Below, in pieces: positions 1-62,715 of a stretch of DNA of 64,000 nucleotides. The notes under the pieces were generated by a model. That model ran no database searches and was not told the DNA's origin. It was given only the letters and a program-made list of their open reading frames with translations. This DNA is from an uncultured Clostridiaceae bacterium (lineage in GTDB: Bacteria > Bacillota > Clostridia > TANB77 > CAG-508). A program made the translations under genes and the position numbers. How positions within the stretch are numbered: the first letter of the stretch is position 1; the number at the start of each line of letters is the position of its first letter. The stretch lies in contig CAKNOI010000003.1 in assembly GCA_930990125.1 (NCBI GenBank), forward strand, positions 972-64,971, written 5' to 3'.

Positions 1-1100
1 TAAAATCAGAATAAAAATATAAAAAGAAAAAAGAAATAAAATGACAAATAAAATAGTAAATAAAAAAATCGAAGAGGATAAAATATAAAATTTATAAAAA
101 AGAAGTGAATTCAGAAAGTAAAAAAATTTAGTTAAAAAAATTTTTGTAGATAATAAAATTAAAGTTATAAAGAAAAAATCTTTATAAAATAAAAATAAAT
201 ATATTTGTGAAAAAAATTAATTTATTAAAAAAGTGCATTAAAAAAATAATAAGAAAATACAAAAGAAAATTGTATACAAAGTGATAAAAAATAAAAGTAA
301 TCTTCTAAAGCGATAAAAAAAATTGTCAAAAACAAGAAATTAGAAACAAAATTATGTATACAATACAAAAGTAAAATATTTGTCAACAAGGATAGAATAA
401 AAAGCTGAAAAAAAGAGACAAAAAACAATCAAAAAAGGAGATAGAAAGAAAGCAATAGAAAAAAACGAGTAAAAGATGTCAAAAATGAGAGAAAAAAGCT
501 TGGGGAATAAGCAAATTCCAAAAATTCAAAAACACGACAAGAGAGGGTAACATAAAGCAGAAGAAAGCCATATTCTTAACCAAAAGAAACCGAAACAATA
601 AGTAATAAAAAAACATAGAAAAGGAAACGTAAAAGAGTATGGTTGCGAATAAGACAAATGCAAACAAAATAAAATTCAATCAAAAAGATAGAAAGATTGC
701 TCAAAGAATAGAGAAAAATATATCATTTAAAAAAGAGAATGTTATATAAGAAAAAAATAAAAATAAAACAAAAAATAGCGTGATATAAAATCTAAAAATT
801 AGAATGATAATATCAATAAAGTTAAAGCAAAAATAAAAAATAGAACTATCATGAAAATAAAACTAAAAATAATTTAATAAATAAAACTAAAAATAAAAAT
901 ATAAAATAATAAATGTAAAAAATAAAATATTAAAATAAAAACAAAATTATAAAAAAGAAAAATAATACATAAAAAATAATGTTATTTAAGATATTAAATT
1001 TAAAATAAAGTAATAATAACTTACATTAAATCAAAAATAACAAAAAGGAAAAATTTATATTTAATTATAGAATAATAGTAATATTATTAAACAGGAATTA
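1..1100. repeat. A-rich low-complexity tract (~1.1 kb, strong A>>T strand skew, almost no G/C, dense stop codons in all + frames)
   Basis: Visible composition; the only ORFs are poly-Phe artefacts on the minus strand. Confidence 0.6.
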
Positions 1101-1164
1101 AAAAATTAATATAAAGAGGATATAAATAGAATATAGGATATAAAATGATAGCAAAAAAATTGAA

Positions 1165-1389
1165 ATGGATTTTATGATAAGAGATAAGAATTCTTTAATA
1201 CCAGTAGAAGTAAAAGCAAATAATAATGCTACCATTTCTCTTAATAATTTAATAAATAGTAATTTATATAAAGATATTAATTATGGAATAAAATTATGCA
1301 ATAAAAATATTGGATTTAATAATAAATTTTATACATTTCCTTATTTCTTAACATTTTTATTAAAAAAATATTTAAAAGAGAAAAAATAA
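1165..1389 (+). pseudogene. C-terminal remnant of a DUF4143/AAA+ ATPase-family gene (the motif MDFMI....IPVEVK resembles the conserved C-terminal EIDFV...IPIEVK region)
   Basis: Short ORF with no N-terminal ATPase domain, preceded by the junk-like A-rich tract. Confidence 0.35.
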
Positions 1390-1480
1390 TAAAAGTAAAA
1401 TAAATAAAAAAGAAATATATGTTAGGAAAATTCTATTTCAAACTATTGCAAGGTCCTTCTAATAATTGATATAATAAAAC

Positions 1481-48530: not shown

Positions 48531-48971
48531 ATGTTAAAAGAAACATTATTAGAAGACTTAAAAAGTGCAATGAAAGAAAAGGATACTGTTACCAAAAATA
48601 CCATACAAATGGCAAGAGCTGCTATTTTACAAGTAGAAAAAGACAAACAAATAACATTAGAAGATAACGATATCTTAACAATTCTAGCAAAAGAAGTAAA
48701 AAAGAGAAAAGACTCTTTAGTAGATTACGAAAAAGGTGGAAGAGAGGACTTAGTAGAGCAAATAAAAAAAGAAATACAAGTATTAGAAAAATATTTGCCA
48801 AAACCACTTTCTAGAGAAGAACTAGAAAAAGAAATAAAGCAAATTGTACAAGAACAAAATGCTACTAGTATGAAAGATATGGGAAAAGTAATGAAAGTGG
48901 CAAAAGAGAAAATAGGCACAAGGGCGGACGGAAAAGAGATAAATGAAATCGTAAAAAGTTTACTACAATAA
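48531..48971 (+). CDS. GatB/YqeY-domain protein
   Basis: Typical partner of rpsU; N-terminal L..L...M.A.K..D pattern. Confidence 0.8.
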   Translation: MLKETLLEDLKSAMKEKDTVTKNTIQMARAAILQVEKDKQITLEDNDILTILAKEVKKRKDSLVDYEKGGREDLVEQIKKEIQVLEKYLPKPLSREELEKEIKQIVQEQNATSMKDMGKVMKVAKEKIGTRADGKEINEIVKSLLQ

Positions 48972-51129: not shown

Positions 51130-51240
51130 AAAAATAGCATCTTTTAAATTTTAATACAAAAAGCTTGTATAAATTTTCCAAAATGTATTATACTATCTAT
51201 AAAGAGAAAAAAACGCTTGAAAAAGAAAGGAAAGAAAAGA

Positions 51241-52515
51241 ATGAAAGAAAAGAAAATACAAATAAAAGAGGGAATTACTTTGCATTATATTCCAACCAAT
51301 AAATTTAAAAACAACATGCTTGCTGTTTTTTTAACGACACCGCTAGATAGAAAAACTGTTACTTGGAATAGTTTGCTAACAGCCGTATTAAGAAGAGGAA
51401 CGAAAACCATGCCAAGTCAAGAAAAAATTAGCGAAAATTTAGAAAAAATGTATGGAGCTTCTTTTGACTGTGGAGTAGAAAAAACAGGAGATAACCAAGT
51501 ATTAAAATTTTACATGGAGTCTCTTAATAATGAATTCTTACCAGAAAAAGAAAATTTGTTACAAGAAAGTATAGATATTTTATTAGAGGTAGTATGGAAT
51601 CCCTACTTAGAAAATGGAGCTTTTTCTAGGGAATATGTAGAAGGAGAAAAACATACTATAAAGCAATTAATAAAAGGAAAAATAGACGATAAAGCCAAAT
51701 ATGCAGTAGAACGTACTACAGAATTAATGTACCCAAATAAGCCATATGGATTATATAAATTTGGATATTTAGAGGATTTAGAAAGCATAACACCAGAAAA
51801 TTTATATACCCATTACCAAAAGCTTTTACAAGAATGTAAAATAGATATATTTGCTTCTGGAGATATAGACAAAGAAGAATTGGTCTCCATGTTGATGCAA
51901 AATGAGCAAATCCAAAAACTACAAGATAGAAAACCAAACTTTATCTGCCATGCGGATGCTTCCGAATTAGAAATACCAAAAACTCCAAACAAAGTAACAG
52001 AAAGCATGAACGTTTCCCAAGGGAAACTTATTTTGGGAATGTATGTGGATAGTAAAAAACCGGACGATAAATACGTGGCACTACTCTATAATGCTATTTT
52101 AGGAGGAAACGCGAATTCAAAATTATTTCAAAATGTAAGAGAAAAAGCAAGCCTTGCCTATACAGCAAGTTCTTCCTATATTAGACCTAAAAATATTATT
52201 TTTATTAAATGTGGCATAGAAATAGAAAACGAAGCAAAAACATTAGACATTATTGAAAAACAACTTCAAGACATAAAAAAGGGAGAATTCTCAGAAGAAG
52301 AAATAGAAATTTGTAAAAAACAAATAATATCTGCAATTAAAGGAATACCAGAGGGACAAGATACCGAAATTATTTACTATTATGGACAAGAAATTGCTGG
52401 CGAAAATGTTAGCTTAGAAGAATATATACAAAAGGTAAATGCAGTAACAAAGCAAGATATTATTGCACTTGCTCAAATGATAAATGTGCACACAGTTTAT
52501 TTCTTAAAAGATTAG
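51241..52515 (+). CDS. M16 family peptidase, non-catalytic subunit (no HxxEH); probable start at ATG 51241
   Basis: Insulinase-like fold length and C-terminal patterns; lacks the zinc-binding HxxEH. Confidence 0.7.
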   Translation: MKEKKIQIKEGITLHYIPTNKFKNNMLAVFLTTPLDRKTVTWNSLLTAVLRRGTKTMPSQEKISENLEKMYGASFDCGVEKTGDNQVLKFYMESLNNEFLPEKENLLQESIDILLEVVWNPYLENGAFSREYVEGEKHTIKQLIKGKIDDKAKYAVERTTELMYPNKPYGLYKFGYLEDLESITPENLYTHYQKLLQECKIDIFASGDIDKEELVSMLMQNEQIQKLQDRKPNFICHADASELEIPKTPNKVTESMNVSQGKLILGMYVDSKKPDDKYVALLYNAILGGNANSKLFQNVREKASLAYTASSSYIRPKNIIFIKCGIEIENEAKTLDIIEKQLQDIKKGEFSEEEIEICKKQIISAIKGIPEGQDTEIIYYYGQEIAGENVSLEEYIQKVNAVTKQDIIALAQMINVHTVYFLKD

Positions 52516-52528
52516 GAGGAAAATCAAC

Positions 52529-53821
52529 ATGCAGGTAATTGAAAATTTAAAAGTAAAAGAAAAAGTATATATAGAGACCTTAGAAAATGGATTAACGGTT
52601 CTTATTATTCCTAAAAAAGAAACAGAGAAAAAATTTATTATATGGGGAACTAATTTTGGATCTATTGATAGTAAATTTATAGCACCAGGAGAAAACGAAA
52701 TCACAACAGTTCCAGATGGAGTAGCCCACTTTTTGGAACATAAGTTATTTGAGCAAAAAAATGGAACCAATAGCCTAGATACATTAACTGCGATAGGAGT
52801 GGATGCCAATGCCTATACGACAACAGACCACACAGCATATTTATACGAATGTAACGATAAATTTTACGAAGCATTAGACGAGTTTATGGATTATGTACAA
52901 AATCCATACTTTACCAAAGAAAATGTAGAAAAAGAGAAAGGAATTATAGGACAAGAAATCCGCATGTACGATGACCACCCAGGTTGGCAGGTTTATATAA
53001 ATGCCATGCAGTGTTTATATCAAAATAATCCTGTTCGCATTGATATAGCAGGAAGCATTGAAAGTATTTCTAACATTGATAAAGATATTTTATACAAATC
53101 TTACAATACATTTTATCATCCATCTAATATGTGCTTAGTAGTATGCGGAAATTTTGAAGCAGAAGCTATTTTAGAAGAAATAAAAAAACGATTACTTCCA
53201 AAAGAAATAATAGGAGAAATACAAAGAATTTATCCAGAAGAACCAGAAAAGGTTGCAAACAAAGAATGTAAGAAACAAATGGAAGTAAGTACCCCAATTT
53301 TTGTAATAGGCATCAAAGATAAAGTAAGCAAGGAAAATATGGTAAAAAAACATATTGCTATTGAAGTTCTATTAAATATGATAATAGGAAAAAGTTCTAA
53401 ATTATATCAAACACTATATAAACAAGGATTATTGTTAGAAGAACCAGATATGCAATATGAGTGGTCCAAAGAGTATGCCCATATTACTATTTCAGCACAA
53501 AGTAAAGATCCTAAAAAAGTCTACCAAGGAATAGCAGATACCATACAAGAATATAAGAAACACGGCCTAGAACTAGAACATTTTGACAGAATAAAAAGAA
53601 AAATTTATGGCGATTATGTAAAAGAATTTGACGATGTGGCAGATATTGCAAGAATGTTTTTAGCAGACTGGATGAAAGGGGTAAATAGTTTTTCTTACTT
53701 AGAGCAATATAATGCTGTTACCAAATCTTATGCAGAAGAAATCCTAAAAGAAGTATTTCTAGAAGACAAAACCATCCTATCTGTTGTTGAACCTAATAGT
53801 AGTAGTAAGGAAGAAAAATAG
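52529..53821 (+). CDS. M16 family zinc peptidase, catalytic subunit
   Basis: HFLEH inverzincin motif and downstream E; RBS GGAGG. Confidence 0.8.
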   Translation: MQVIENLKVKEKVYIETLENGLTVLIIPKKETEKKFIIWGTNFGSIDSKFIAPGENEITTVPDGVAHFLEHKLFEQKNGTNSLDTLTAIGVDANAYTTTDHTAYLYECNDKFYEALDEFMDYVQNPYFTKENVEKEKGIIGQEIRMYDDHPGWQVYINAMQCLYQNNPVRIDIAGSIESISNIDKDILYKSYNTFYHPSNMCLVVCGNFEAEAILEEIKKRLLPKEIIGEIQRIYPEEPEKVANKECKKQMEVSTPIFVIGIKDKVSKENMVKKHIAIEVLLNMIIGKSSKLYQTLYKQGLLLEEPDMQYEWSKEYAHITISAQSKDPKKVYQGIADTIQEYKKHGLELEHFDRIKRKIYGDYVKEFDDVADIARMFLADWMKGVNSFSYLEQYNAVTKSYAEEILKEVFLEDKTILSVVEPNSSSKEEK

Positions 53822-54652
53822 ATGACAATTACGATTCCGCTTTTTTCTATCACCATAGCAATTCCTAAGATAGCATGCACTATCTTAGGAATCCAAATTT
53901 ATTGGTATGGAATTATTATTGCAATAGCAATGGCAGTTGCTGTTATTTTATACTATAAAAAAAGTGGTACTTATGGAATATCTTTTGACACTATTCTTAG
54001 TGCATTTTTATGGGTTATTCCATTTGCATTTTTGGGTGCTAGACTTTATTATGTCATATTCCGATGGGACTATTATAGTAGTAATCCTAGCCAAATACTA
54101 CAAATTAAAAACGGAGGACTAGCCATTTATGGAGGTTTGTTCGTAGGAGTGGCTATCTTATGTTTTTACTGCAAAAAAAATAAAATATGCATCCGAGACA
54201 TGCTAGACTATGTGGTACCAGAAATAGCAATAGCACAATCGATAGGAAGATGGGGAAATTTTTTTAATGTAGAAGCCTATGGAGTAGAAACCACCCTGCC
54301 ATGGAAAATGGGAATTGAAGCACAGGGAACGAACTCATACGTACATCCCACTTTTTTGTATGAATCTATTTGCACATTAGGAATCTATCTTTTACTACAC
54401 AAAATAGAAAAAAACAGAAAATGGAAAGGTCAGATAACTTGCTTATATATCACACTTTATTCTTTTGCTAGAATGTGGATAGAAGGCTTAAGAACAGACA
54501 GTCTATATCTAGGAAATATTCGTATTTCGCAATTAGTATCCATTATCCTTTTTGTCGTTTTTGGTAGTATTTTGTTTTATTTTGCATACCACAATAGAAA
54601 AATGTCAAAAAAAGAAGAAAAAAATAAAAAAGTGACATACAAAAATGCCTGA
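53822..54652 (+). CDS. lgt: Prolipoprotein diacylglyceryl transferase
   Basis: Polytopic; G..R.GNFFN.E..G signature region (GRWGNFFNVEAYG). Confidence 0.85.
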   Translation: MTITIPLFSITIAIPKIACTILGIQIYWYGIIIAIAMAVAVILYYKKSGTYGISFDTILSAFLWVIPFAFLGARLYYVIFRWDYYSSNPSQILQIKNGGLAIYGGLFVGVAILCFYCKKNKICIRDMLDYVVPEIAIAQSIGRWGNFFNVEAYGVETTLPWKMGIEAQGTNSYVHPTFLYESICTLGIYLLLHKIEKNRKWKGQITCLYITLYSFARMWIEGLRTDSLYLGNIRISQLVSIILFVVFGSILFYFAYHNRKMSKKEEKNKKVTYKNA

Positions 54653-54750: not shown

Positions 54751-54954
54751 ATGTTAAATGATGAGATTTGTAAATTACGTGAAAAATTAAATAATAGCAT
54801 AATAAGTGGACAAGACTATAGCATAACTTATCAGTTAAGCGTGGAACTTGATGACCTTATTGCACAATATTATAAAGAATTTCAAGAAAAGAGGGCTCCA
54901 AAGAAAGAAAAAGTGGGCAAAAACGCCAGAACAAAAACTTTTTCCAGTATTTAA
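54751..54954 (+). CDS. Spo0E-family sporulation regulatory protein (aspartyl-phosphate phosphatase-like)
   Basis: I..LR..L.........ITYQLS.ELD.LI..Y helix-hairpin pattern, 67 aa. Confidence 0.65.
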   Translation: MLNDEICKLREKLNNSIISGQDYSITYQLSVELDDLIAQYYKEFQEKRAPKKEKVGKNARTKTFSSI

Positions 54955-54992
54955 AAGAGTTCTTTTCCTGTGGAAGTAAGGGCTCTTTTTTG
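54953..54992 (+). terminator. Probable intrinsic terminator after the spo0E-like gene
   Basis: AAAAGAG...CTCTTTTTT hairpin with an internal TTCC/GGAA stem. Confidence 0.45.
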
Positions 54993-55042
54993 TCCCTACC
55001 ATGAAAAAAAGACAAAAAAATTAAGAAATAATCAAATAATTC

Positions 55043-55071
55043 TTGCTTTTTCCTTCAAAATAGTCTATAAT
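55043..55071 (+). promoter_or_regulatory. Sigma-A promoter TTGCTT, 17 nt, TATAAT heading the T4SS-like gene cluster
   Basis: Hexamers at 55043-55048 and 55066-55071. Confidence 0.55.
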
Positions 55072-55129
55072 AAAAAACAAGAGAATGAAAAAAATATGAA
55101 AAAATAAAGAAAGTTAAGGAGGATTACGC

Positions 55130-55513
55130 ATGAAAAACAAAACAGTAAAAATAATTTCTGCAATAATGTTAGTAATGATGGTATTATTTTCAATGTCTAA
55201 TTTAGTACTTGCAGCTACAACTGGAGATCCATTAGACCCAAGTAAAATACAAGGACAACCATCTAAGGCTTCTGACAAAGTTAATGAGGCGGCAAATATT
55301 ATTTTAGGAATTGTTCAAGTAGTAGCTGTTGCAGTAGCGGTTATTATGCTTATTGTGTTAGCAGTTAAATATATATCCGCATCTCCAGAAGGAAAAGCGG
55401 ATATTAAAAAATCTGCAACAATGTACATTGTAGGAGCTATCTTACTATTTGCATCTACAGGTATTCTAGAAATACTAAAACAATTTGCAACAAGTACATT
55501 TGGAGGAGAATAA
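55130..55513 (+). CDS. Pilin-like small membrane protein (VirB2/TrbC-like; signal peptide + 2 TM), paralog 1
   Basis: Signal peptide ...VLAA; ILGIVQVVAVAVAVIML..AVKYISASPEGKADIK..ATMYIVGAILLFA. Confidence 0.6.
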   Translation: MKNKTVKIISAIMLVMMVLFSMSNLVLAATTGDPLDPSKIQGQPSKASDKVNEAANIILGIVQVVAVAVAVIMLIVLAVKYISASPEGKADIKKSATMYIVGAILLFASTGILEILKQFATSTFGGE

Positions 55514-55594
55514 TTTTTCATACCTATAAGCAAGAAAAATCAGGAGATGGTAAATACAATTTACCATCTTTTTTCAAAAAAGGTGGTGGATGTT

Positions 55595-55951
55595 ATGACA
55601 AGAAAAAAAATAGTAAGAATTATTGGTATTTTAATACTAGCAATGTTGTTAGGCTCAACGTTTGTTTTTGCAGATGACATTAATACAGGAGGCTATACAG
55701 GAATCTATCATGGGGGATCCCAAAGCATACGAAATGCAGGAAGCCTTATCCTAGGAGTAGTACAAGTAGTAGGAACAAGTATAGCGGTTATTATGCTAGT
55801 AATTATAGCTATTCGTTACTTTACTGCTGCACCAGAGGCAAAGGCAGATATTAAAAGCCAGCTTATCCCTTATGTAATAGGAGCTGTATTGCTATTTGCA
55901 GCAAGCAACCTAGTAAGTATTGTAGCAACAGCAGCACAGGAGATTTTTTAA
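55595..55951 (+). CDS. Pilin-like small membrane protein, paralog 2
   Basis: ILGVVQVVGTSIAVIMLVIIAIRYFTAAPEAKADIK...PYVIGAVLLFAA matches paralog 1; RBS AGGTGGTGG. Confidence 0.6.
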   Translation: MTRKKIVRIIGILILAMLLGSTFVFADDINTGGYTGIYHGGSQSIRNAGSLILGVVQVVGTSIAVIMLVIIAIRYFTAAPEAKADIKSQLIPYVIGAVLLFAASNLVSIVATAAQEIF

Positions 55952-56194
55952 AATTGCTTACGGACAAAGGCAAAAGGAGCGAACACTTACAAACAAAAGT
56001 AAAACATAAGACAAAAAGAAAAAAGAGTCAAAATAGAACGCAAAAAACAGGTCTATTTTGGCTCTTTTATTGCAACAATATTACAGTTATATGAAAAGTT
56101 CATAATAATGACGAATATAACCTATAAATGTTGAAAAATACAGGGAAATGAAGTATAATAATAAGTAATAGAGTGTAAAAGTGGGGTGAAAGAA

Positions 56195-56734
56195 ATGAAA
56201 GGAAAAACAATGAAAAAAATAATTTACAGTATCCTGTTACTTCTATTAACAATAAGCCTAATACTTCCAAGCACAGTACAAGGATATACACAAGATATAG
56301 TCTTAGCTGACGCAGACGGTGGAGATACTGTTACTGGTGGTGGAGGAAGCGCAGATGGGTTTACTTTGGATAGTATTAAAGAACAAGCAGATACCTGGCT
56401 AAATGGGGGAAAAGGACAAGACCATATTAATGACCAACAGCTACAAAACATTATCATTCCTATTGGACAAATGTTAGTAGCAATAGGAAGTGTGGTACTG
56501 GTTATTGTTACTACTATCATGGGTATTAAATACATCATGGGTGGACCAGATAAAAGAGCACAATTAAAACAACAATTAGTAGGTTTGGTAGTAGCAACTA
56601 TTGTTATTTTCGCTGCACAAGCAATATGGGCACTCGTATATAATTTTATGACAGACTTAACAGTAAGTAAAAAAGTAGAAAGAACCCCAATGAAACAAGA
56701 AATACAATTACCAGAAGAAATCTGGAAAGGATAA
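56195..56734 (+). CDS. Pilin-like small membrane protein, paralog 3 (longer, Gly/Asp-rich N-terminal extension)
   Basis: IPIGQMLVAIGSVVLVIVTTIMGIKYIMGGPDKRAQLKQQLVGLVVATIVIFAA has the same two-helix layout. Confidence 0.55.
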   Translation: MKGKTMKKIIYSILLLLLTISLILPSTVQGYTQDIVLADADGGDTVTGGGGSADGFTLDSIKEQADTWLNGGKGQDHINDQQLQNIIIPIGQMLVAIGSVVLVIVTTIMGIKYIMGGPDKRAQLKQQLVGLVVATIVIFAAQAIWALVYNFMTDLTVSKKVERTPMKQEIQLPEEIWKG

Positions 56735-56750: not shown

Positions 56751-57089
56751 ATGGGTACATATTATATTCCTAGAAATGTAAAAGGAGAAACAAGATTATT
56801 AAATATCTTTACCGTAAAATCTCTTATCACAACCGTTGCAGGAACAATCATTGGTTCTGTATTTTATCTTATTTTTGGACTACTTCTGGGACTAAAACCA
56901 GTAGGAATTGGAATAATGGTTTTCTTTGCTGTAGTAGGATTTGGAGTAGGAGCCATTAAAATACCAACACTAGGAGGAATTCCTTTTACCCAAAAAATTG
57001 GTGGAGAATCCTTAGACGAAATCATAAGAAGATACATCAAATTTAAAATGAACCGAAAAGTGTACACTTATACAAAGGAGGAAAAATAG
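56751..57089 (+). CDS. VirB3/PrgI-like small two-TM T4SS protein
   Basis: 112 aa, two adjacent TMs, directly upstream of the VirB4 region; RBS AAAGGAGG. Confidence 0.55.
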   Translation: MGTYYIPRNVKGETRLLNIFTVKSLITTVAGTIIGSVFYLIFGLLLGLKPVGIGIMVFFAVVGFGVGAIKIPTLGGIPFTQKIGGESLDEIIRRYIKFKMNRKVYTYTKEEK

Positions 57090-57092
57090 AAC

Positions 57093-58277
57093 ATGGATAT
57101 CATTGTTATACTGAACTTAGTTTTAATTATAGCTGTTATACTAATTGCTATTTTTGCTGGACTGTTCTTCTGGTTTTGGATGCGCTCTAAAAAGAAACAA
57201 GAAGAAGAGCTATTAGATGGACAAGCACCAAAAGAACAATCCACTTTTCATGGCATACCAAGAGAGTCTATTTATAAATTTTTAGAGTTTGACGAAATAA
57301 AAGATAATATGATTATCCGAAAAAATAGACAACAATATGTTATGGTAATCCAATGCCAAGGAGTTAACTATGACTTATTATCCGAAGAAGAAAAAGTAGC
57401 GGTAGAAGAAGGATTTGTCCAATTCTTAAACACGCTTCGTTTTCCAATTCAATTATATATTCAAACAAGAAGTCTAAATTTAAGAGAAATTGTAGATGAA
57501 TACAAAGAACGCGTAAAGAAAATGCAAGAAGAACTAGATGCACTAAATGTAAGAATAAGAGATGCAGAAAGACGTGGCAATCAAAAAGAAATAGATAAAT
57601 TAAATTATGAAAGAAGAAGAAAAGAAAACGTATTAGAATATGGAGCTGACATTGCAGATTATGTAGGAAGACTAAGTTTAAATAAAAATGTATTGCAACA
57701 AAGAAATTATGTTGTTGTTTCTTACTACGCATCCGAATTTAGTGGAGGAGATAAGTATTCAAAAGAAGAAATAGACAATATCTGTTTTGGAGAACTATAT
57801 ACAAGATGTCAATCCATTATTCGTTCTTTATCTTCTTCTAGCGTTCTAGGAAAGGTATTAACATCAGAAGAATTAGGAGAGCTACTTTATATTGCTTATA
57901 ACAGAGATGAATCTGAAATTATGCAATTATCCAAAGCTCTAGATGCACAATACGATGCTCTATATAGCACTGCAAAAGATGTATTACAGAAAAAGCAAGC
58001 ACAAATAGAAGAACAGCTTGAAGTAGAAGCAGTAAACCTAGCAACAGAAAGTATTTTAGAAGCAGACAGAATTCGTAAAAAAGAATTAAGTAATGAAGAT
58101 AAGAAAAAGAAAATAAAAGAAAAAGCATTACAAATGATAGAAGAATATAAAGATCAAATGGATGCTGACCTTTACGAAGAAACTAAAAAGGAAATTGTAA
58201 GACAAGCAGAAAATTTAGAAGAGAAAACAGAAAAGAAGAAACAAACAAGTAGAACAAAAGCAAAGAAAGGAGAATAA
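57093..58277 (+). CDS. T4SS-associated membrane protein: N-terminal TM then a long charged coiled-coil (394 aa)
   Basis: RBS AAAGGAGG; operonic with virB4. Confidence 0.5.
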   Translation: MDIIVILNLVLIIAVILIAIFAGLFFWFWMRSKKKQEEELLDGQAPKEQSTFHGIPRESIYKFLEFDEIKDNMIIRKNRQQYVMVIQCQGVNYDLLSEEEKVAVEEGFVQFLNTLRFPIQLYIQTRSLNLREIVDEYKERVKKMQEELDALNVRIRDAERRGNQKEIDKLNYERRRKENVLEYGADIADYVGRLSLNKNVLQQRNYVVVSYYASEFSGGDKYSKEEIDNICFGELYTRCQSIIRSLSSSSVLGKVLTSEELGELLYIAYNRDESEIMQLSKALDAQYDALYSTAKDVLQKKQAQIEEQLEVEAVNLATESILEADRIRKKELSNEDKKKKIKEKALQMIEEYKDQMDADLYEETKKEIVRQAENLEEKTEKKKQTSRTKAKKGE

Positions 58278-58283
58278 TCGGAT

Positions 58284-60251
58284 ATGAGAAAAAACAAAAA
58301 GATTGAACAAGAACAAGCTATACAAAGTGAAAATATGCAAGGTGTATTAAATAAAAATGCAAAGACCATAAAAGATTTAATTGCACCTGCTGGAATAGAT
58401 GCAAGCAACACCAATCACTTGGAAATTGTATCTAATCGTTCTAGGTTTGCAAGAAGTATGGTTGTTTCTACTATTCCAAGGATGTGTACCTTCCCAGAGT
58501 TTTTAAGAAGCATGTACACATTTGGGGATGCAAACATTTCCGTATTTATTAATCCTATCAGTGAAAGTACCTCACAAACAGACTTAAATAGAACCATTAA
58601 TGAGCTAGAATCAGAAAGAATTGTAGCAATGGACAAAGGAGATATTAACCGTGAAAGAATTCTAGCACAAAAAAGATTAGAAGCAGAAGAACTAAGAGAC
58701 CAAATTGCAGCAGGGTTTAATAAAATATTTGAATCTTCTATTATATGTACGTTATTTGCCTATAACCTAGAAGATTTAAACAAACAAACAGAATTCTTAG
58801 CATCAGAAATGTCCAAAACATTAATAGGAGTAAAACCAGCATGGGCAATGCAAGAAGAAGCATTTAAATCCAATATGCCATATTGTGATAATAAAATAAA
58901 TAAAGCCCATTCTTTTGACCGTAGAAGTATGGCAACAGTATTCCCATTCTTTACTTCTGACGTAGGACATGAAAAAGGAATACCACTAGGATTTAACAGA
59001 CAAACAGGATTACCTATTTTATTTGATAACTTTAGCCCAAAACTAACCAATTACAACATGATTATTTTTGGTAAATCTGGTGCTGGTAAAGGTGTAACCA
59101 TCAAAACGTTAACAGCACGTTCTGCTGTATTAATGGGAATTGAAAGTTTAGCACTAGATGCCGAAGGTGAGTATGGAGTAGTGGCAGAATCTTTAGGAGG
59201 AATTAATGTTACCATTAGTCCAAACTCTAATACAATTATTAACCTATTTGACTTAGAACCAGAAATTGTACGTGATGAGATTACCGGAAGAGAAAGAACA
59301 GTATTAAATATAGAAAATAAAGTAGAAGACGTAACACAGGCTCTACTTACCATGGCAAGAGGAAGTACAAGAAGTACAGAGGTAAACGAGCTTACCAAAC
59401 AAATTATAGCAGAAGCAGTAGCCGAGGAATATGCAGGACTTGGTATTACCAATAGTTTAGAAAGTCTTTACACAGACGAAACACCAGCATTTCGTAAAAA
59501 CTATTTAGGAAGAACCAAAAAAGAAATGCCAACCATTGGTTCTTGGTATAAAAGAATTTTGCAAAATGCAAGTAAAAATGATAACCCAGACTATCGTTTC
59601 CACTATAGTTATTTAGCAAAAGTAATGAGACAATATGTAAGAGAATACGATGGACAAATGGCATACTTTGACGGACAATCTACTTTTGAATTATTAGATA
59701 GTGTACCATTTATTAACCTAGATATTTCCCAACTAGAAGAGAGATTTGCAAGACCACTTGCACAACAAATTCTACTTTCTTGGATTTGGGAAAAATATGT
59801 TAAGAAAAACAGTGAAGATAGAACCAAAGCAACCAAAAAAAGAGTACTAGTAGACGAGGCATGGATGTTACTACCATATCCAGAAGCAGTAGACTTCTTA
59901 AATACAATGGCAAGACGTGCCAGAAAAAGAAATGTATCCCTTGCCGTAGTATCACAAAAATTCCAAGACTTTTATGAAAAACAAGAAGCACAAGCAGTTT
60001 TAACATCATCTGATACAAAATTATTCTTAGCACAAGATAAATCTGAAATTGAATATATAAAAGAAGTATTTAAACTAAGCGAAGGAGAAGCAGCATTTTT
60101 AACAACCTGCAGTAGAGGAGAAGGACTATTAAAAGTAGGAGAAGATACAGCAATTATTGCAATTAAACCAACACAAAAAGAATTCGAATTCGTAGAAACA
60201 AACGTAAACGAAATTGTAAGACATAATAGAAGAAAAACAGACCCAAAATAA
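58284..60251 (+). CDS. VirB4/TraE/ConE-family conjugation ATPase
   Basis: Walker A IIFGKSGAGKGVTIKT, Walker B VLVDEAWMLL, N-terminal VirB4 domain (NHLEIVSNRSRFARSMVVSTIPRMCTFPEFL). Confidence 0.85.
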   Translation: MRKNKKIEQEQAIQSENMQGVLNKNAKTIKDLIAPAGIDASNTNHLEIVSNRSRFARSMVVSTIPRMCTFPEFLRSMYTFGDANISVFINPISESTSQTDLNRTINELESERIVAMDKGDINRERILAQKRLEAEELRDQIAAGFNKIFESSIICTLFAYNLEDLNKQTEFLASEMSKTLIGVKPAWAMQEEAFKSNMPYCDNKINKAHSFDRRSMATVFPFFTSDVGHEKGIPLGFNRQTGLPILFDNFSPKLTNYNMIIFGKSGAGKGVTIKTLTARSAVLMGIESLALDAEGEYGVVAESLGGINVTISPNSNTIINLFDLEPEIVRDEITGRERTVLNIENKVEDVTQALLTMARGSTRSTEVNELTKQIIAEAVAEEYAGLGITNSLESLYTDETPAFRKNYLGRTKKEMPTIGSWYKRILQNASKNDNPDYRFHYSYLAKVMRQYVREYDGQMAYFDGQSTFELLDSVPFINLDISQLEERFARPLAQQILLSWIWEKYVKKNSEDRTKATKKRVLVDEAWMLLPYPEAVDFLNTMARRARKRNVSLAVVSQKFQDFYEKQEAQAVLTSSDTKLFLAQDKSEIEYIKEVFKLSEGEAAFLTTCSRGEGLLKVGEDTAIIAIKPTQKEFEFVETNVNEIVRHNRRKTDPK

Positions 60252-60287: not shown

Positions 60288-61490
60288 ATGAAAAAACTAC
60301 TTACCAGTATGCTAATAATTATGGTTTTATTTCAGACCGTACTATCTCCAAAAACTATTTTTGCTGCAGAAGTAGCAGAGGATACTGCTACAGATACAGT
60401 ATCAGAAGAAGCACCATATACCCAGGAAGATATTGATAAATTGTTACACAATGGAACAGGAAACAAGGGAGATAAAGAGGATGTTACCATTGATAGAGAT
60501 TTGGGGGATGGACAAAGCATTTATGATATGAACTCTAATACAACAAAAAGTATTTTTACTATGTTATTTGGAGTATTAAATATGATTCCATTAACCATAA
60601 GTACTATTCTTTCACTAGCAGTAACAGATTTTGTTGTCCCAGATAAACAAGTACCTAATTTTCTAACAATAGAGGATTTAGTATTTGGCAAAATTTCCAT
60701 GTTAGATATTAATTTTTTAAGTAATCAGAATATGGGAACTACACAAAATGGAGTAGAAATTAATGCTCAAATTAAAGAGCAGGTAGCTATATGGTATTAT
60801 GCTGTAAGAAATATTGCCATTGTTTTATCTTTAATTGTTCTACTATATGTAGGGATTCGAATGGCAATTTCAACCGTGGCTGCTGAAAGAGCTAAATATA
60901 AAGAAATGTTAAAAAATTGGCTTATTTCCTTTGTGTTACTATTTACACTACAATATATTATATCTGCTATATTTTTGTTTTACTCTCTATGTATTCAAGT
61001 AACTTCACATTTGTATAGCAATGAAGCAGGATTTGAACAAGAAATTATTAATAATGTAATGCTAGATTTAGATAAAGAAGTGGGAATAGATGTAGTTTTA
61101 TCTTCTATTACTTACTGGATATTAGTCTTTTACCAAGTACGATTTTTACTAATATATGTAAAAAGATTTATTGTAACAGGATTTTTAATAGCAATTGCAC
61201 CAGCAATTACGGTAACTTATACCATAGATAAAATGGCAGATAAAAGAGCACAAGCATTTGAAACATGGAAAAGAGAGTTAATTATTAACATTCTAATTCA
61301 GCCATTACATATTTTAATATATACTGTATTCCTTGTGGCTGCAGGAGCAATAGTAGAAACAGCACCAATACTATCCATACTTTTCTTTACATCTTTATCA
61401 AGAGTAGAGAAAATTGTAAAGGGAGTATTTAGAATGAGAGGAGCTAAATCAATTCATTCTATGTCAGAAACACTAAGATTAAAAAAATAG
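60288..61490 (+). CDS. VirB6/TrbL-like polytopic T4SS channel protein (paralog A, with an N-terminal secreted domain)
   Basis: Signal peptide, ~170-aa external domain, then 6-7 TMs starting IWYYAVRNIAIVLSLIVLLYVGIRMAIST. Confidence 0.65.
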   Translation: MKKLLTSMLIIMVLFQTVLSPKTIFAAEVAEDTATDTVSEEAPYTQEDIDKLLHNGTGNKGDKEDVTIDRDLGDGQSIYDMNSNTTKSIFTMLFGVLNMIPLTISTILSLAVTDFVVPDKQVPNFLTIEDLVFGKISMLDINFLSNQNMGTTQNGVEINAQIKEQVAIWYYAVRNIAIVLSLIVLLYVGIRMAISTVAAERAKYKEMLKNWLISFVLLFTLQYIISAIFLFYSLCIQVTSHLYSNEAGFEQEIINNVMLDLDKEVGIDVVLSSITYWILVFYQVRFLLIYVKRFIVTGFLIAIAPAITVTYTIDKMADKRAQAFETWKRELIINILIQPLHILIYTVFLVAAGAIVETAPILSILFFTSLSRVEKIVKGVFRMRGAKSIHSMSETLRLKK

Positions 61491-61509
61491 TAAAGAAAGG
61501 ATGGTAATA

Positions 61510-62715
61510 ATGAGCAAAAAGAAAAAAATTCTAATTGGTATATTGGTTTTGTTGATTATCGTGTTACTTATCTATCTTACCATCCGTTATTTACAAGGAC
61601 TTACCTATGATCCAGAAAAGCCATACCAAACAATAAAAGAAGCGGTAGAAGCCTTAGGACATACTTACCTAAAAGAAGAAACATCTACGGAAGAAAGATT
61701 TTCCGAAGATATTTACCTAAATTTTTCGGTGGACTTATACACAGAAGAAAACAGTAATGAAAAAATATATAATGACCTTATTTATACAATTGCAAGAGTA
61801 GAAAAATACAAAAGTTTTCGCTTAATAGACCCAGAAAAAGAAACAGTAATTGCAGTACTTGCCAATGAACAAGAAAAAAAGTTAGTTAGAATTTATATTA
61901 ACGGAGACGATAACTACTTTGGAAGACATAGGTCTATGGAAACGATAGAAGAATATACAGAAACACCGGTTACAGACTTTATCATAGAATCGCCTATTCT
62001 TCAAGATAGTATAAGAACAAATTGGAGTACCAATATTTATCTAGGAACCGAAGATGAAAAAAGAGAAGATTATAGAATTTATTCAGATGAGGGGCTAGAA
62101 GTAAAAAAAGTAGATAATAAATTATTTAACATTGTTTTTACACAAAATTATAACAACACCATAGTAAATGGCATAAAAGTAGGAGAAACAATAGATGCTA
62201 TTATTCCTATACTAGGAACTCCAACCTTTGGAAGCAAACAGGAAGGCTTAATAGGATACAAAGGAGAACAATTCTATATTTTCTTTATGGAAAAAGAAAT
62301 TTCTGTTTATCCAGTACTTAAAAATTATGACACAACAGAATTTGTGCAATTAGTTACAACTTATACGGAAGAAGGAAATGCAAGCGATTTTGTAAAAAAA
62401 ATAACAGGCTTATGGAGTGATTATGATCTTTATGAACATGACACAAACTATGTAAAATTACGATATACCTTAAAAGGAGTAGAAATACAATTTAATATTA
62501 CTCCAAACCATGGTATTACCTATTACCAAAATTATCAAGGAGAAATAAAAGAAGGAATTAATTTTAGTAATCTAAAGGAAAAAGAAGGAGAACTATCCAA
62601 TTATATTTATTTTCAGCTAGATACAAACTTAGTATATAAAACAGAACAAGAAAGATTTCATGCATTTCTTTTAAGAGAAAAGGCAAAAGAAACATTAAAT
62701 CCATATGATGAGTAA
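61510..62715 (+). CDS. Bitopic T4SS protein (TcpC/VirB8-like topology: N-terminal TM + ~370-aa external domain)
   Basis: RBS AAAGGA 8 nt before ATG 61510; single TM. Confidence 0.5.
   Translation: MSKKKKILIGILVLLIIVLLIYLTIRYLQGLTYDPEKPYQTIKEAVEALGHTYLKEETSTEERFSEDIYLNFSVDLYTEENSNEKIYNDLIYTIARVEKYKSFRLIDPEKETVIAVLANEQEKKLVRIYINGDDNYFGRHRSMETIEEYTETPVTDFIIESPILQDSIRTNWSTNIYLGTEDEKREDYRIYSDEGLEVKKVDNKLFNIVFTQNYNNTIVNGIKVGETIDAIIPILGTPTFGSKQEGLIGYKGEQFYIFFMEKEISVYPVLKNYDTTEFVQLVTTYTEEGNASDFVKKITGLWSDYDLYEHDTNYVKLRYTLKGVEIQFNITPNHGITYYQNYQGEIKEGINFSNLKEKEGELSNYIYFQLDTNLVYKTEQERFHAFLLREKAKETLNPYDE

What the first reader, a model, noticed from the sequence alone, without database searches (positions are those of the whole stretch)
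55130..56734. Three tandem paralogous pilin-like genes with a conserved AP/SPE-[GA]-KADIK inter-helix motif
The three proteins share the same layout: a signal peptide, then helix 1 (ILG[IV]VQVV...IML), a short charged loop (SPEGKADIK, APEAKADIK or GPDKRAQLK), and helix 2. This is the VirB2/TrbC pilin topology. Tandem triplication with a divergent third copy carrying a Gly/Asp-rich extension suggests heteromeric or phase-variable pilus subunits. Nothing like this is characterised for Firmicutes T4SS.
Basis: seen in the sequence. Interest (0 to 1): 0.6.

Follow-up and report, generated by a model that had tools for sequence, protein, structure and literature searches.

The report
Three VirB2-like pilin genes in Clostridia
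Three neighbouring small genes encode related pilin-type subunits of a type IV secretion machine that sits in the chromosome of an uncultured gut Clostridia bacterium with no DNA-transfer genes found nearby; Gram-positive secretion machines of this type were long said to lack such pilins.

Summary
Three tandem genes (55130-55513, 55595-55951, 56210-56734) are paralogs (BLASTP 2e-26 to 1e-9). Each has a Sec-type signal peptide, a variable exposed segment, and two hydrophobic helices joined by a P-[ED]-x-[KR]-A-x-[IL]-K loop. All three score above Pfam's threshold for T4SS_pilin (PF18895), and the first also for TrbC/VirB2.

They lead a type IV secretion operon: PrgI/VirB3-like, a split VirB4 ATPase, three VirB6/TrbL-like paralogs and wall hydrolases. 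The locus is chromosomal. I found no coupling protein, relaxase or integrase in it or in about 55 kb upstream.

The same locus, with 3 or 5 pilin genes, recurs in at least nine related uncultured Clostridia lineages. Four of them share the window's neighbouring genes. The three pilins form separate orthologous groups, so the triplication is old. That favours specialised subunits over phase variation.

VirB4 is 76-84% identical between species whose neighbouring housekeeping genes are 47-63% identical. Pilin 1 is a within-species allelic hot spot (dS about 0.67 against 0.03 in neighbouring genes).

The family is already in Pfam. Similar arrays are described for Patescibacteria. A 2025 preprint reports VirB2-like proteins in Gram-positive plasmids. 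Verdict: new member of a known kind, in an unusual setting.

The parts
54751..54954 (+). Spo0E-like small gene immediately upstream. It is linked to the pilin array in several species. Its membership of the system is uncertain.
   Evidence: Pfam SpoOE-like, 36 bits. It lies next to the array in the window, L017 and L020, and inside the array in L011 and L013.
55043..55071 (+). Possible promoter of pilin 1 (TTGCTT-17-TATAAT).
   Evidence: Perfect -10 hexamer at 55066-55071, read from the sequence. The -35 is weak and the consensus scan did not flag the site. Inference only.
55130..55513 (+). Pilin 1: 127-aa prepilin with predicted cleavage after VLA28. Candidate major subunit, variable between strains.
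   Evidence: PF18895 41.1 bits and PF04956 32.9 bits, both above threshold. Strong RBS AAGGAGG. AF2 hairpin. Alleles are 78-80% identical where neighbouring T4SS genes (VirB4, TraC-like, TM400, p404) are 99-100%.
55545..55575 (+). Hairpin plus U-run between pilin 1 and pilin 2; a likely weak terminator or attenuator.
   Evidence: 12-bp stem followed by UUUUUU; region z-score -3.0.
55595..55951 (+). Pilin 2: 118-aa prepilin with cleavage after VFA25. The mechanical ORF starts at 55547.
   Evidence: PF18895 31.6 bits, above threshold; PF04956 27.1, just below. RBS and hairpin argue for the start at 55595. The mature part is nearly invariant between strains.
56021..56072 (+). Strong intrinsic terminator after pilin 2.
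   Evidence: 17-nt arms, 94% complementary, followed by UUUUAUU; z-score -5.2, and 0 of 200 shuffles fold as well.
56131..56159 (+). Promoter-like site for pilin 3 and the T4SS core operon.
   Evidence: TTGAAA-17-TATAAT, 11 of 12 matches, the best site in the region.
56210..56734 (+). Pilin 3: 174-aa prepilin (ORF from GTG 56186; alternative ATG 56195). It has a Gly/Asp-rich exposed extension and a C-terminal tail. Candidate minor subunit, co-transcribed with the machine.
   Evidence: PF18895 38.9 bits, above threshold. AF2 hairpin 75-110/113-155 with disordered 19-53. Its orthologs share a 3-residue insertion in helix 1.
56751..57089 (+). PrgI/VirB3-like small membrane protein.
   Evidence: Pfam PrgI 26.1 bits, just below the threshold of 27. 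Conserved position before VirB4 in all relatives.
57093..58277 (+). 394-aa protein with an N-terminal hydrophobic (likely TM) segment and a TraC-like (VirB4 N-terminal-type) domain; the first half of a split VirB4.
   Evidence: Precomputed PF26593 TraC-like. Weak match to positions 99-220 of NF045975 VirB4_plasma. The same split occurs in relatives and in C. botulinum and C. beijerinckii plasmids.
58284..60251 (+). VirB4-family ATPase, 655 aa.
   Evidence: P-loop_TraG 58.3 bits, AAA_10, DUF87. conju_CD1110 E=1e-62, VirB4_plasma E=1.5e-58, both below the NCBIfam equivalog cut-offs. 76-84% identical in other species.
60288..61490 (+). VirB6/TrbL-like polytopic membrane protein 1 (400 aa; gene callers start at 60309). 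It contains a pilin-like hairpin module.
   Evidence: PF18895 27.9 bits at residues 161-227. Weak MMCAP2_0566 and Mbov_0396 matches. Paralog of the TrbL-689 protein, whose ortholog carries PF19590 TrbL_3.
61501..62715 (+). 404-aa protein with an N-terminal hydrophobic (likely membrane-anchor) segment, function unknown. The position and topology would suit a VirB8-type component; this was not tested.
   Evidence: No significant family match. Identical in sequence in all six same-species metagenome loci fetched (L003-L008) and matched at 35-59% identity in six related loci.
62750..64000 (+). Start of a 1085-aa protein: NlpC/P60-type hydrolase fused to VirB6/TrbL-like module 2. It runs off the window.
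   Evidence: Translation. Full gene in L003 11250-14507 has weak NLPC_P60 and T4SS_pilin matches. 33-37% identical to the other two VirB6-like paralogs.

Best explanation
The three genes encode prepilins of the VirB2/TrbC superfamily (Pfam T4SS_pilin). They are structural subunits of a type IV secretion apparatus that is part of the chromosome, not of a mobile element.

**Proposed mechanism.**
1. Each precursor is inserted by Sec, and signal peptidase I cuts after an AXA motif. Inferred from sequence.
2. This leaves a two-helix hairpin in the membrane, N- and C-termini outside and the Lys-rich loop inside. Inferred from sequence and AF2.
3. The VirB4 ATPase (here split in two) and VirB3-like PrgI extract hairpins and stack them on a platform of VirB6/TrbL-like proteins. 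Three VirB6-like paralogs in this locus each carry a pilin-like hairpin. Inferred by analogy with the R388 and pCF10 models.
4. The product is a tube or short pilus that crosses the thick wall, helped by the NlpC/P60 and glucosaminidase enzymes of the operon. Inferred.

**Proposed roles.**
- Pilin 1 has its own promoter-like site, a strong RBS and a terminator-like hairpin, and it varies strongly between strains. It is the likely major, exposed subunit.
- Pilin 2 would be reached by read-through of that hairpin.
- Pilin 3 is co-transcribed with the machine. It is the likely low-copy subunit (initiator, adaptor or tip).

**Function of the whole system.** No coupling protein, relaxase or integrase is found in or near the locus. 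It is syntenic across species, and its ATPase is more conserved than neighbouring housekeeping genes. The apparatus therefore probably serves a host function other than self-transfer: DNA uptake or exchange, or contact with other cells. Which one is unknown.
For: **Family membership**
- PF18895 is above threshold for all three, and PF04956 for pilin 1.
- Homologs are named TrbC/VirB2 family protein and VirB2 pilin.
- The family has 6646 representatives at E<=1e-3.

**Anatomy**
- Signal peptide, two TM helices and a positive loop; invariant P, A and K in the loop.
- AF2 hairpins.

**T4SS context**
- PrgI, TraC-like protein and VirB4.
- The ortholog of the 689-aa protein carries TrbL_3.
- Three VirB6-like paralogs with a pilin-like hairpin.
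- NlpC/P60 and glucosaminidase domains.

**Old triplication and specialisation**
- Arrays of 3 genes in 7 lineages and of 5 genes in 2 lineages.
- Same-position pilins are usually more alike between species than different positions are: clearly for p3 (33-40% against 14-31%) and for most p1 pairs (39-46% against 21-39%), only marginally for p2 (25-43% against 20-39%). A p3-specific insertion is shared across species.

**Transcription units**.

**Chromosomal and not mobile**
- The neighbourhood carries pcrA, mreBC, PBP2, minC, spoIIE, nrdDG, yqeY, M16 peptidases and lgt.
- Downstream in a relative come a CAP/SH3 protein, a D-Ala-D-Ala carboxypeptidase and tRNAs.
- No T4CP, relaxase or integrase domain in any gene tested.
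- GC content equals that of the flanks.
- The same neighbouring genes flank the locus in L011, L013, L017 and L020.

**Constraint and exposure**
- VirB4 is 76-84% identical between species. Flanking M16, Lgt and YqeY are 47-63%, and the pilins 32-48%.
- Pilin 1 alleles have dS 0.66-0.68 against 0.02-0.04 in virB4, traC-like and lgt. Amino-acid changes concentrate in the mature N-terminal segment.

**Literature model**: VirB2-like proteins assemble on VirB6 in Gram-positive systems (10.64898/2025.12.18.695078).
Against: - There are no experimental data. The organisms are uncultured.
- A family profile finds no solved pilin by sequence.
- hhalign against Agrobacterium VirB2 and against PrgF is not significant.
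- The TrbC model is below threshold for pilins 2 and 3.
- No family match points to a VirB5-like tip protein or a TraF-like maturation peptidase in the locus; neither was specifically searched for.
- A coupling protein or relaxase could lie elsewhere in the genome. Only about 55 kb upstream and about 25 kb downstream were examined, the last part only in a 71%-identical relative (L009).
- The signal-peptide call rests on heuristics.
- Roles of major and minor subunits are inferred from gene layout alone.
- The pil1 polymorphism rests on seven sequences. It could reflect imported DNA and not balancing selection.
Confidence: 0.7

Rival explanations
1. The locus is the mating-pair-formation module of a conjugative or mobilising element. 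The three pilins serve ordinary conjugative DNA transfer, and the coupling protein, relaxase and oriT lie elsewhere.
For: - The VirB4 is of the conjugative CD1110 / Mycoplasma-ICE type.
- A related operon (VirB4 41% identical, same gene order) sits on C. botulinum and C. beijerinckii plasmids.
- In L015 and L025 the locus occupies other chromosomal positions, so it has moved at least occasionally.
Against: - No T4CP, relaxase or integrase in or around the locus.
- The same neighbouring genes flank it in four other lineages.
- VirB4 is more conserved than the flanking housekeeping genes while adjacent T4SS genes are not. That argues against recent transfer of the block.
- GC content is not deviant.
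- PLSDB types even the related plasmids as non-mobilizable.
Confidence: 0.12
2. The three proteins are T4SS components that stay in the membrane as part of the channel or stator. They never polymerise into an extracellular filament.
For: - No conjugative pilus has been seen on any Gram-positive cell (10.64898/2025.12.18.695078).
- The same hairpin module is built into three polytopic VirB6-like proteins, so it can act as a membrane-embedded element.
- The monomer models and fold searches say nothing about polymerisation.
Against: - Cleavable signal peptides and a variable exposed N-terminal segment are typical of exported, surface-exposed subunits.
- The pil1 allelic hot spot is hard to explain for a buried protein.
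- pil1 and pil2 have their own transcription unit, which suggests a higher stoichiometry than the machine.
Confidence: 0.15
3. They are unrelated small membrane proteins (holins, bacteriocin immunity proteins or similar) that happen to lie next to a T4SS operon.
For: Small two-TM proteins are common, and the fold is uninformative.
Against: - Pfam pilin models score above threshold.
- Every other Pfam match for the three pilins is below its family's threshold; none is a holin or immunity family.
- Linkage to PrgI and VirB4 holds in eight of the nine lineages. In L023 the array stands apart from any T4SS gene in the stretch seen.
- No match in phage records.
Confidence: 0.02

Closest known systems
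VirB2-like pilin arrays of the Patescibacteria (CPR) T4SS (PMC12102498; reviewed in PMC12857230)
   Same: - Monoderm host and a VirB4 of the MPF-FATA type.
- Pilins detected with the same Pfam models (PF18895, PF04956).
- Tandem arrays of divergent paralogs: 2-11 genes, mean 25% identity there; 3-5 genes, 22-39% here.
- Usually no relaxase nearby.
- Some loci lie next to the replication origin, as in L015/L016 here.
   Different: - The host here is a Clostridia bacterium with sporulation-associated genes (spoIIE, Spo0E-like) and normal wall and rod-shape genes, not an ultrasmall epibiont.
- The array is a conserved triad of three orthologous groups.
- Whether the two VirB4 lineages are specifically related was not tested.
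- Essentiality is shown for one Patescibacterium and is unknown here.
TrbC (RP4) and VirB2 (Ti plasmid) pilins of Gram-negative T4SS, Pfam PF04956
   Same: - Prepilin with a signal peptide, two hydrophobic helices and a short basic loop.
- The gene lies just before virB3 and virB4.
- Pilin 1 passes the PF04956 threshold.
   Different: - The signal peptide is an ordinary 25-28 residues. From my own knowledge, not tested here: the Gram-negative leaders are longer, and those pilins mature by TraF-type cyclisation.
- No family match suggests a TraF-like peptidase or VirB5 in the locus (neither was specifically searched for), and there is no outer-membrane complex.
- The direct profile comparison with Agrobacterium VirB2 is not significant.
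- The system is chromosomal, with no T4CP or relaxase found.
PrgF of pCF10 and the predicted VirB2-like proteins of Gram-positive conjugative plasmids (bioRxiv 10.64898/2025.12.18.695078)
   Same: - Small two-helix hairpin with a charged loop, encoded near VirB6, VirB3 and VirB4 genes of a Gram-positive T4SS.
- Proposed to stack on a VirB6 pentamer and form the conduit through the wall.
   Different: - The 75-aa PrgF sequence begins directly with its first hydrophobic helix, leaving no room for a signal peptide.
- It shows no detectable sequence similarity: hhalign probability 1.1%, and no PF18895 or PF04956 match.
- It is a single gene on a conjugative plasmid that has a T4CP and relaxase.
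- tblastn with pilin 1 finds no match in PLSDB plasmids.
Bartonella Trw T4SS with tandem trwL (VirB2) copies (as summarised in PMC12857230 and PMC12102498)
   Same: A T4SS without a coupling protein that carries several sequence-variable tandem pilin genes. It is thought to build variable adhesive pili, not to transfer DNA.
   Different: - It is a Gram-negative, host-cell-adhesion system that also amplifies VirB5.
- There the copies are read as antigenic or host-range variants. Here the three copies are old, conserved orthologous groups.
Archaeal Ced/Ted DNA-import system with VirB2-like pilin CedA1 (PMC9905601; only the title and abstract were seen)
   Same: A chromosomal, domesticated T4SS-like machine in a cell without an outer membrane. 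It uses a VirB2-like pilin and a VirB4-family ATPase for a host function (DNA import). The VirB4 here has weak NCBIfam matches to CedB and CedD.
   Different: The host is archaeal. Similarity is only distant and was not tested at the pilin level. There is no evidence here for DNA import.
Mycoplasma ICE proteins: Mbov_0395 pilin-like, Mbov_0396 TM protein, Mbov_0397 VirB4 (NCBIfam NF045849, NF045889, NF045975)
   Same: The same three kinds of gene occur together. The pilins, TM400 and VirB4 here each give their NCBIfam matches to these models.
   Different: All matches are below the equivalog cut-offs (for example 22-26 bits against 40). The Mycoplasma genes belong to mobile ICEs, and the 80-position profile points to a shorter protein.

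Membership tests
Pfam PF18895 T4SS_pilin | Score at or above the curated gathering threshold (26.6 bits) | tested here: met
   41.1, 31.6 and 38.9 bits for pilins 1, 2 and 3. The p3 orthologs in L015 and L011 score 30.0 and 31.1.
Pfam PF04956 TrbC/VirB2 pilin | Score at or above the gathering threshold (27.9 bits) | tested here: inconclusive
   Pilin 1 scores 32.9 (met), pilin 2 scores 27.1 (just below) and pilin 3 scores 22.9 (below).
VirB2/TrbC-type T4SS pilin | Small prepilin with a cleavable N-terminal signal peptide | tested here: met
   K-rich n-region, h-region and AXA motif in all three and in all orthologs. This is heuristic; SignalP was not available.
VirB2/TrbC-type T4SS pilin | Two hydrophobic helices joined by a short, positively charged loop | tested here: met
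   Hydropathy segments. AF2 hairpins 46-83/86-124 and 75-110/113-155. Loop net charge +1 to +3.
VirB2/TrbC-type T4SS pilin | Gene linked to virB3 and virB4 of a T4SS | tested here: met
   PrgI-like, TraC-like and VirB4 genes lie directly downstream. The same holds in eight of the nine related lineages. In L023 the array stands apart from T4SS genes in the stretch seen.
VirB2/TrbC-type T4SS pilin | Structural similarity of the monomer to solved pilins | tested here: inconclusive
VirB2/TrbC-type T4SS pilin | Polymerises into a helical pilus or tube, with lipid in most solved cases | not testable with these tools
   No multimer modelling or experiment was available.
VirB2/TrbC-type T4SS pilin | Maturation by a TraF-type peptidase or cyclisation (RP4, Ti) | not tested
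   No family match points to a TraF-like gene among the locus proteins scanned. Cyclisation cannot be inferred from sequence, and not all VirB2 pilins undergo it.
PrgF-type VirB2-like proteins of Gram-positive plasmids | Sequence relatedness to PrgF | tested here: not met
   hhalign probability 1.1%, E=0.048. PrgF has no PF18895 or PF04956 match.
Patescibacteria-type pilin array T4SS | Tandem array of divergent PF18895/PF04956 pilins near an MPF-FATA-like virB4, without a relaxase | tested here: met
   Arrays of 3-5 genes. The VirB4 matches the CD1110 and VirB4_plasma models. No relaxase or T4CP domain in the locus or flanks.
Patescibacteria-type pilin array T4SS | VirB4 falls in or next to the Patescibacteria VirB4 clade | not tested
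Self-transmissible conjugative element (ICE or plasmid) | Coupling protein (VirD4/TcpA type), relaxase, and an integrase or replicon with the T4SS | tested here: not met
   None was found in about 55 kb upstream, in the 14-gene locus, or downstream as far as dacB and tRNAs in a relative. The rest of the genome was not seen.

The most novel reading that the evidence does not exclude
A whole clade of uncultured gut Clostridia with sporulation-associated genes carries a vertically inherited T4SS with no coupling protein or relaxase. It would build a heteromeric filament from three ancient VirB2-family pilins, perhaps paired with three VirB6-like paralogs. Its ATPase is under stronger constraint than neighbouring housekeeping genes, and its major pilin is kept polymorphic within species. 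On this reading the machine is a domesticated host organelle for DNA uptake or exchange, or for contact with other cells, and is not a conjugation device. It would be the Firmicutes counterpart, or source, of the essential Patescibacteria T4SS. It would also show that sequence-recognisable VirB2 pilins do exist in MPF-FATA-type systems of classical Gram-positive bacteria, contrary to current reviews.
Probability: 0.35. Interest if true: 0.8.

Novelty: new member of a known kind. Interest (0 to 1): 0.55.

Why it matters
A 2025 review (PMC12857230) and the Patescibacteria study (PMC12102498) state that Gram-positive T4SSs lack VirB2 pilins, with Patescibacteria as the one exception. A December 2025 preprint challenges this, using PrgF-type proteins that are unrelated in sequence.

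This locus shows bona fide TrbC/VirB2-family prepilins, with signal peptides and in conserved triads, in Firmicutes. It gives a sequence-level bridge between Gram-negative pilins, the Patescibacteria arrays and Gram-positive machines.

The setting suggests a T4SS recruited for a host function in abundant but uncultured gut bacteria:
- it is chromosomal and shares neighbouring genes across several species;
- no transfer genes were found;
- the ATPase is very highly conserved;
- one pilin is an allelic hot spot.

If that is right, it bears on how material crosses a thick cell wall and on what T4SSs do besides conjugation. The practical limit is that the hosts are uncultured. The nearest cultured handles are the related operons on C. 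botulinum and C. beijerinckii plasmids.

Tried and rejected
2. **Family profile against PDB sequences.** Only designed helical proteins matched.
3. **hhalign of the family against PrgF and against Agrobacterium VirB2.** Neither was significant, although the VirB2 alignment was in register. My recalled VirB2 sequence was checked and is 100% identical to annotated virB2.
4. **tblastn of pilin 1 against PLSDB plasmids and INPHARED phages.** No match.
5. **Phase variation.** Only short, chance-level inverted repeats, no recombinase gene in the locus or upstream, and no repeat tract in the pilin region.
6. **TANB77 lead.** The Nat Commun 2024 'conserved pilin' paper concerns a Tad-type pilus cluster, a different system. 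I could not place the window's taxon beyond 'uncultured Clostridia'.
7. **Rfam and tRNA scans of the window.** Nothing found.
8. **Genome-contig scan with a downstream protein.** It returned only one related MAG, so the end of the locus is known only from that 71%-identical relative.
9. **The cst conjugation locus of pCS1-1 and pCLL (PMC5770547).** The paper mentions no pilin, and I did not test its relation to this locus.
Full report
**1. Observation**

Three ORFs lie on the + strand at 55130-55513, 55547-55951 and 56186-56734. They are clearly paralogous: BLASTP gives p1-p2 37% identity (E=2e-26), p1-p3 29% (E=6e-10) and p2-p3 28% (E=1e-9).

Each protein has the same layout:
- a Lys-rich n-region, a hydrophobic core and an AXA-type cleavage motif (VLA|A, VFA|D, VQG|Y);
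- a variable segment;
- a long hydrophobic helix;
- the loop K-Y-x-x-[AG]-x-P-[ED]-x-[KR]-A-x-[IL]-K;
- a second hydrophobic helix.

The loops carry net charges of +1 to +3. In a 50-sequence family alignment, P86, A90 and K93 are invariant.

AlphaFold2 gives these models:
- Pilin 1: signal-peptide helix, a low-confidence linker, and a hairpin at 46-83/86-124 (mean pLDDT 79.5).
- Pilin 3: a disordered Gly/Asp-rich stretch at 19-53, a hairpin at 75-110/113-155 and a disordered tail.

Two gene starts need correction:
- Pilin 2 most likely begins at ATG 55595. The upstream start lies inside a hairpin, and 55595 has a good RBS.
- Pilin 3 most likely begins at ATG 56210 or 56195.

**2. Family**

All three proteins score above Pfam's gathering threshold for PF18895 T4SS_pilin: 41.1, 31.6 and 38.9 bits against 26.6. 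Pilin 1 also passes for PF04956 TrbC/VirB2 (32.9 against 27.9), while pilins 2 and 3 fall just below and below. NCBIfam gives sub-threshold matches to the Mycoplasma ICE 'pilin-like conjugal transfer protein'.

The few homologs that carry a name are called TrbC/VirB2 family protein or VirB2 pilin. The family is large, with 6646 50%-identity representatives at E<=1e-3.

Structure-based and pairwise profile tests were uninformative or negative. That is expected for a simple hairpin.

**3. Context**

Downstream genes, in order:
- a PrgI/VirB3-like gene;
- a 394-aa membrane protein with a TraC-like domain;
- a 655-aa VirB4 ATPase (CD1110 and VirB4_plasma type);
- a 400-aa polytopic protein with an internal T4SS_pilin match;
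- a 404-aa protein with an N-terminal membrane anchor;
- the start of a 1085-aa NlpC/P60 fusion.

Identical metagenome contigs continue the operon. Next come a 689-aa protein, a 965-aa protein ending in a glucosaminidase domain, and three unknowns. The ortholog of the 689-aa protein carries the TrbL_3 domain.

The 400-, 1085- and 689-aa proteins are paralogs: 33-37% identical over about 300 residues, with E between 1e-43 and 1e-54. Each begins with a hairpin that aligns with the pilin core. The locus therefore holds three pilins and three VirB6-like proteins.

Transcription signals split the array:
- a hairpin plus U-run after pilin 1;
- a strong terminator after pilin 2 (z=-5.2);
- an 11-of-12 promoter match before pilin 3.

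**4. Not a mobile element, as far as can be seen**

The 55 kb upstream encode pcrA, radC, mreBC, PBP2, minC, spoIIE, two-component systems, ABC transporters, ispH, nrdDG, yqeY, two M16 peptidases, lgt and a Spo0E-like protein. In a related MAG the operon is followed by a CAP/SH3 protein, a D-Ala-D-Ala carboxypeptidase and two tRNAs.

No coupling protein, relaxase or integrase domain appears in any gene tested. GC content is uniform across the locus and its flanks. The rest of the genome was not visible.

**5. Comparative evidence**

The same locus occurs in the same neighbourhood (nrdDG, S21, yqeY, M16, M16, lgt, spo0E) in several other species-level lineages. In one lineage it follows the origin-proximal genes rnpA-yidC-jag-trmE-gidAB-parAB.

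A family HMM finds three pilin genes in seven lineages and five in two. Same-position pilins are usually more alike between species than different positions are. This is clear for p3 and for most p1 pairs, and marginal for p2. A 3-residue insertion in helix 1 marks all p3 orthologs. The triplication is therefore ancient and the copies are individually maintained.

VirB4 is 76-84% identical across these species. The syntenic flanking proteins are 47-63% identical, PrgI and the TraC-like protein 49-63%, and the pilins 32-48%. More than 100 90%-identity clusters of VirB4 are at least 80% identical to the query. Recent transfer of the whole block would not produce this pattern.

**6. Within-species variation**

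Among six contigs of the same species, the neighbouring T4SS genes (VirB4, TraC-like, TM400, p404) are 99-100% identical, but pilin 1 is only 78-80% identical. Nucleotide identity drops to 77% over a stretch of about 750 bp centred on pil1.

Synonymous divergence between pil1 alleles is 0.66-0.68, against 0.02-0.04 in virB4, the traC-like gene and lgt. Amino-acid changes and an indel concentrate in the mature N-terminal segment, while the helices stay under purifying selection (dN/dS about 0.1).

This looks like old alleles kept or exchanged at a surface-exposed subunit. The sample is small.

**7. Interpretation**

The best reading is that these are VirB2/TrbC-family prepilins. After signal-peptide cleavage they would be stacked by the VirB3/VirB4 motor on VirB6-like platforms to form a conduit or short pilus through the wall. 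Pilin 1 would be the abundant, exposed, variable subunit. Pilin 3 would be a low-copy subunit made together with the machine.

The assembly steps are inferred from the R388 and pCF10 models. They are not shown here.

No transfer genes were found, the locus is syntenic across species and the ATPase is strongly conserved. Together these point to a host function other than self-transfer. Known parallels are the Patescibacteria T4SS, Bartonella Trw, H. pylori ComB and archaeal Ced. Which function applies here is unknown.

**8. Comparison and novelty**

Patescibacteria have arrays of 2-11 VirB2-like genes, detected with the same Pfam models near an MPF-FATA-type virB4 and mostly without a relaxase (PMC12102498). 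That paper and a 2025 review state that Gram-positive T4SS classes otherwise lack VirB2.

The ter Beek preprint shows that PrgF is a functional VirB2-like protein and predicts such proteins on most Gram-positive conjugative plasmids. However, the PrgF sequence starts directly with a hydrophobic helix, so it has no room for a signal peptide, and it has no detectable similarity to the present family. Pilin 1 has no tblastn match in PLSDB.

A related operon on C. botulinum and C. beijerinckii plasmids carries a single small gene with only a weak pilin match.

The genes are thus new members of a known family and of a known kind of arrangement. They occur in a phylum and a genomic setting where I found no published description.

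**9. Verdict**

- The pilin interpretation is supported.
- Phase variation is not supported.
- The claim of no precedent is outdated.
- Interest is moderate, and would be higher if the domesticated-organelle reading holds.

Noticed in passing
window 58284-60251 (VirB4) compared with 51217-54652 (M16 peptidases, lgt) and 48531-48971 (yqeY): The VirB4 ATPase is 76-84% identical to its orthologs in species whose syntenic flanking housekeeping proteins are only 47-63% identical. In the sister MAG L009 lineage VirB4 is 96% identical while other T4SS proteins are 55-72%. This is unusually strong constraint for a T4SS gene.
   Followed up: partly
window 54980-55730 (L003 3482-4230): There is an allelic hot spot centred on pilin 1. 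Nucleotide identity between strains drops to about 77% while flanks stay at 97-100%. dS between alleles is 0.66-0.68 against 0.02-0.04 in neighbouring genes. At least three allele classes occur among seven sequences.
   Followed up: partly
window 60288-61490; 62750-64000 (continues off the window); L003 14491-16560: Three paralogous VirB6/TrbL-like polytopic proteins are present, one of them fused to an NlpC/P60 hydrolase. Each begins with a pilin-like hairpin (WYYxxRN ... GIRMA[IL]STV ... [KR]AxYKxML) that aligns with the pilin core. Three pilins and three platforms may be matched pairs.
   Followed up: partly
window 57093-58277 and 58284-60251: VirB4 is split into a 394-aa membrane protein with a TraC-like N-terminal-type domain and a 655-aa ATPase. 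The split is conserved in all relatives and in the C. botulinum and C. beijerinckii plasmid operons, so it is not a pseudogene.
   Followed up: partly
window 54751-54954: A Spo0E-like small gene lies next to the pilin array in five lineages. In L011 and L013 it sits inside the array, between an inverted pilin 1 and pilin 2. This hints at a regulatory link with Spo0A signalling.
   Followed up: no
L015 and L016, 1-10000: In one related lineage the whole T4SS locus follows the origin-proximal gene set rpmH-rnpA-yidC-jag-trmE-gidA-gidB-parA-parB. The same origin-proximal placement is reported for some Patescibacteria T4SS loci (PMC12102498).
   Followed up: no
L022 160-2505; L023 990-3094: Some relatives have five tandem pilin genes. 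In L023 the array stands apart from any T4SS gene in the stretch seen and lies next to sortase and FctA-type (sortase-dependent pilus) genes.
   Followed up: no
proteins P0328-P0332, P0435, P0439, P0449: Some family members are single polypeptides of 265-457 aa containing 3-5 consecutive pilin units. These are either fused 'polypilins' or merged gene calls.
   Followed up: no
L001 (C. botulinum p12/29) and L002 (C. beijerinckii plasmid): A related operon is present: small gene, PrgI-like, TraC-like, VirB4 (41% identical), a large TM protein with a pilin-like module, and a C39-type peptidase. It sits on 134-169 kb plasmids that PLSDB types as non-mobilizable. The small gene matches T4SS_pilin only weakly (18 bits).
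   Followed up: partly
window 1-1480: This A-rich stretch has very low complexity (GC 19.6% over the first 2 kb) and many degenerate short tandem repeats. It has no long ORF. A 74-aa ORF at 1165-1389 is the longest there and has no assigned function.
   Followed up: no
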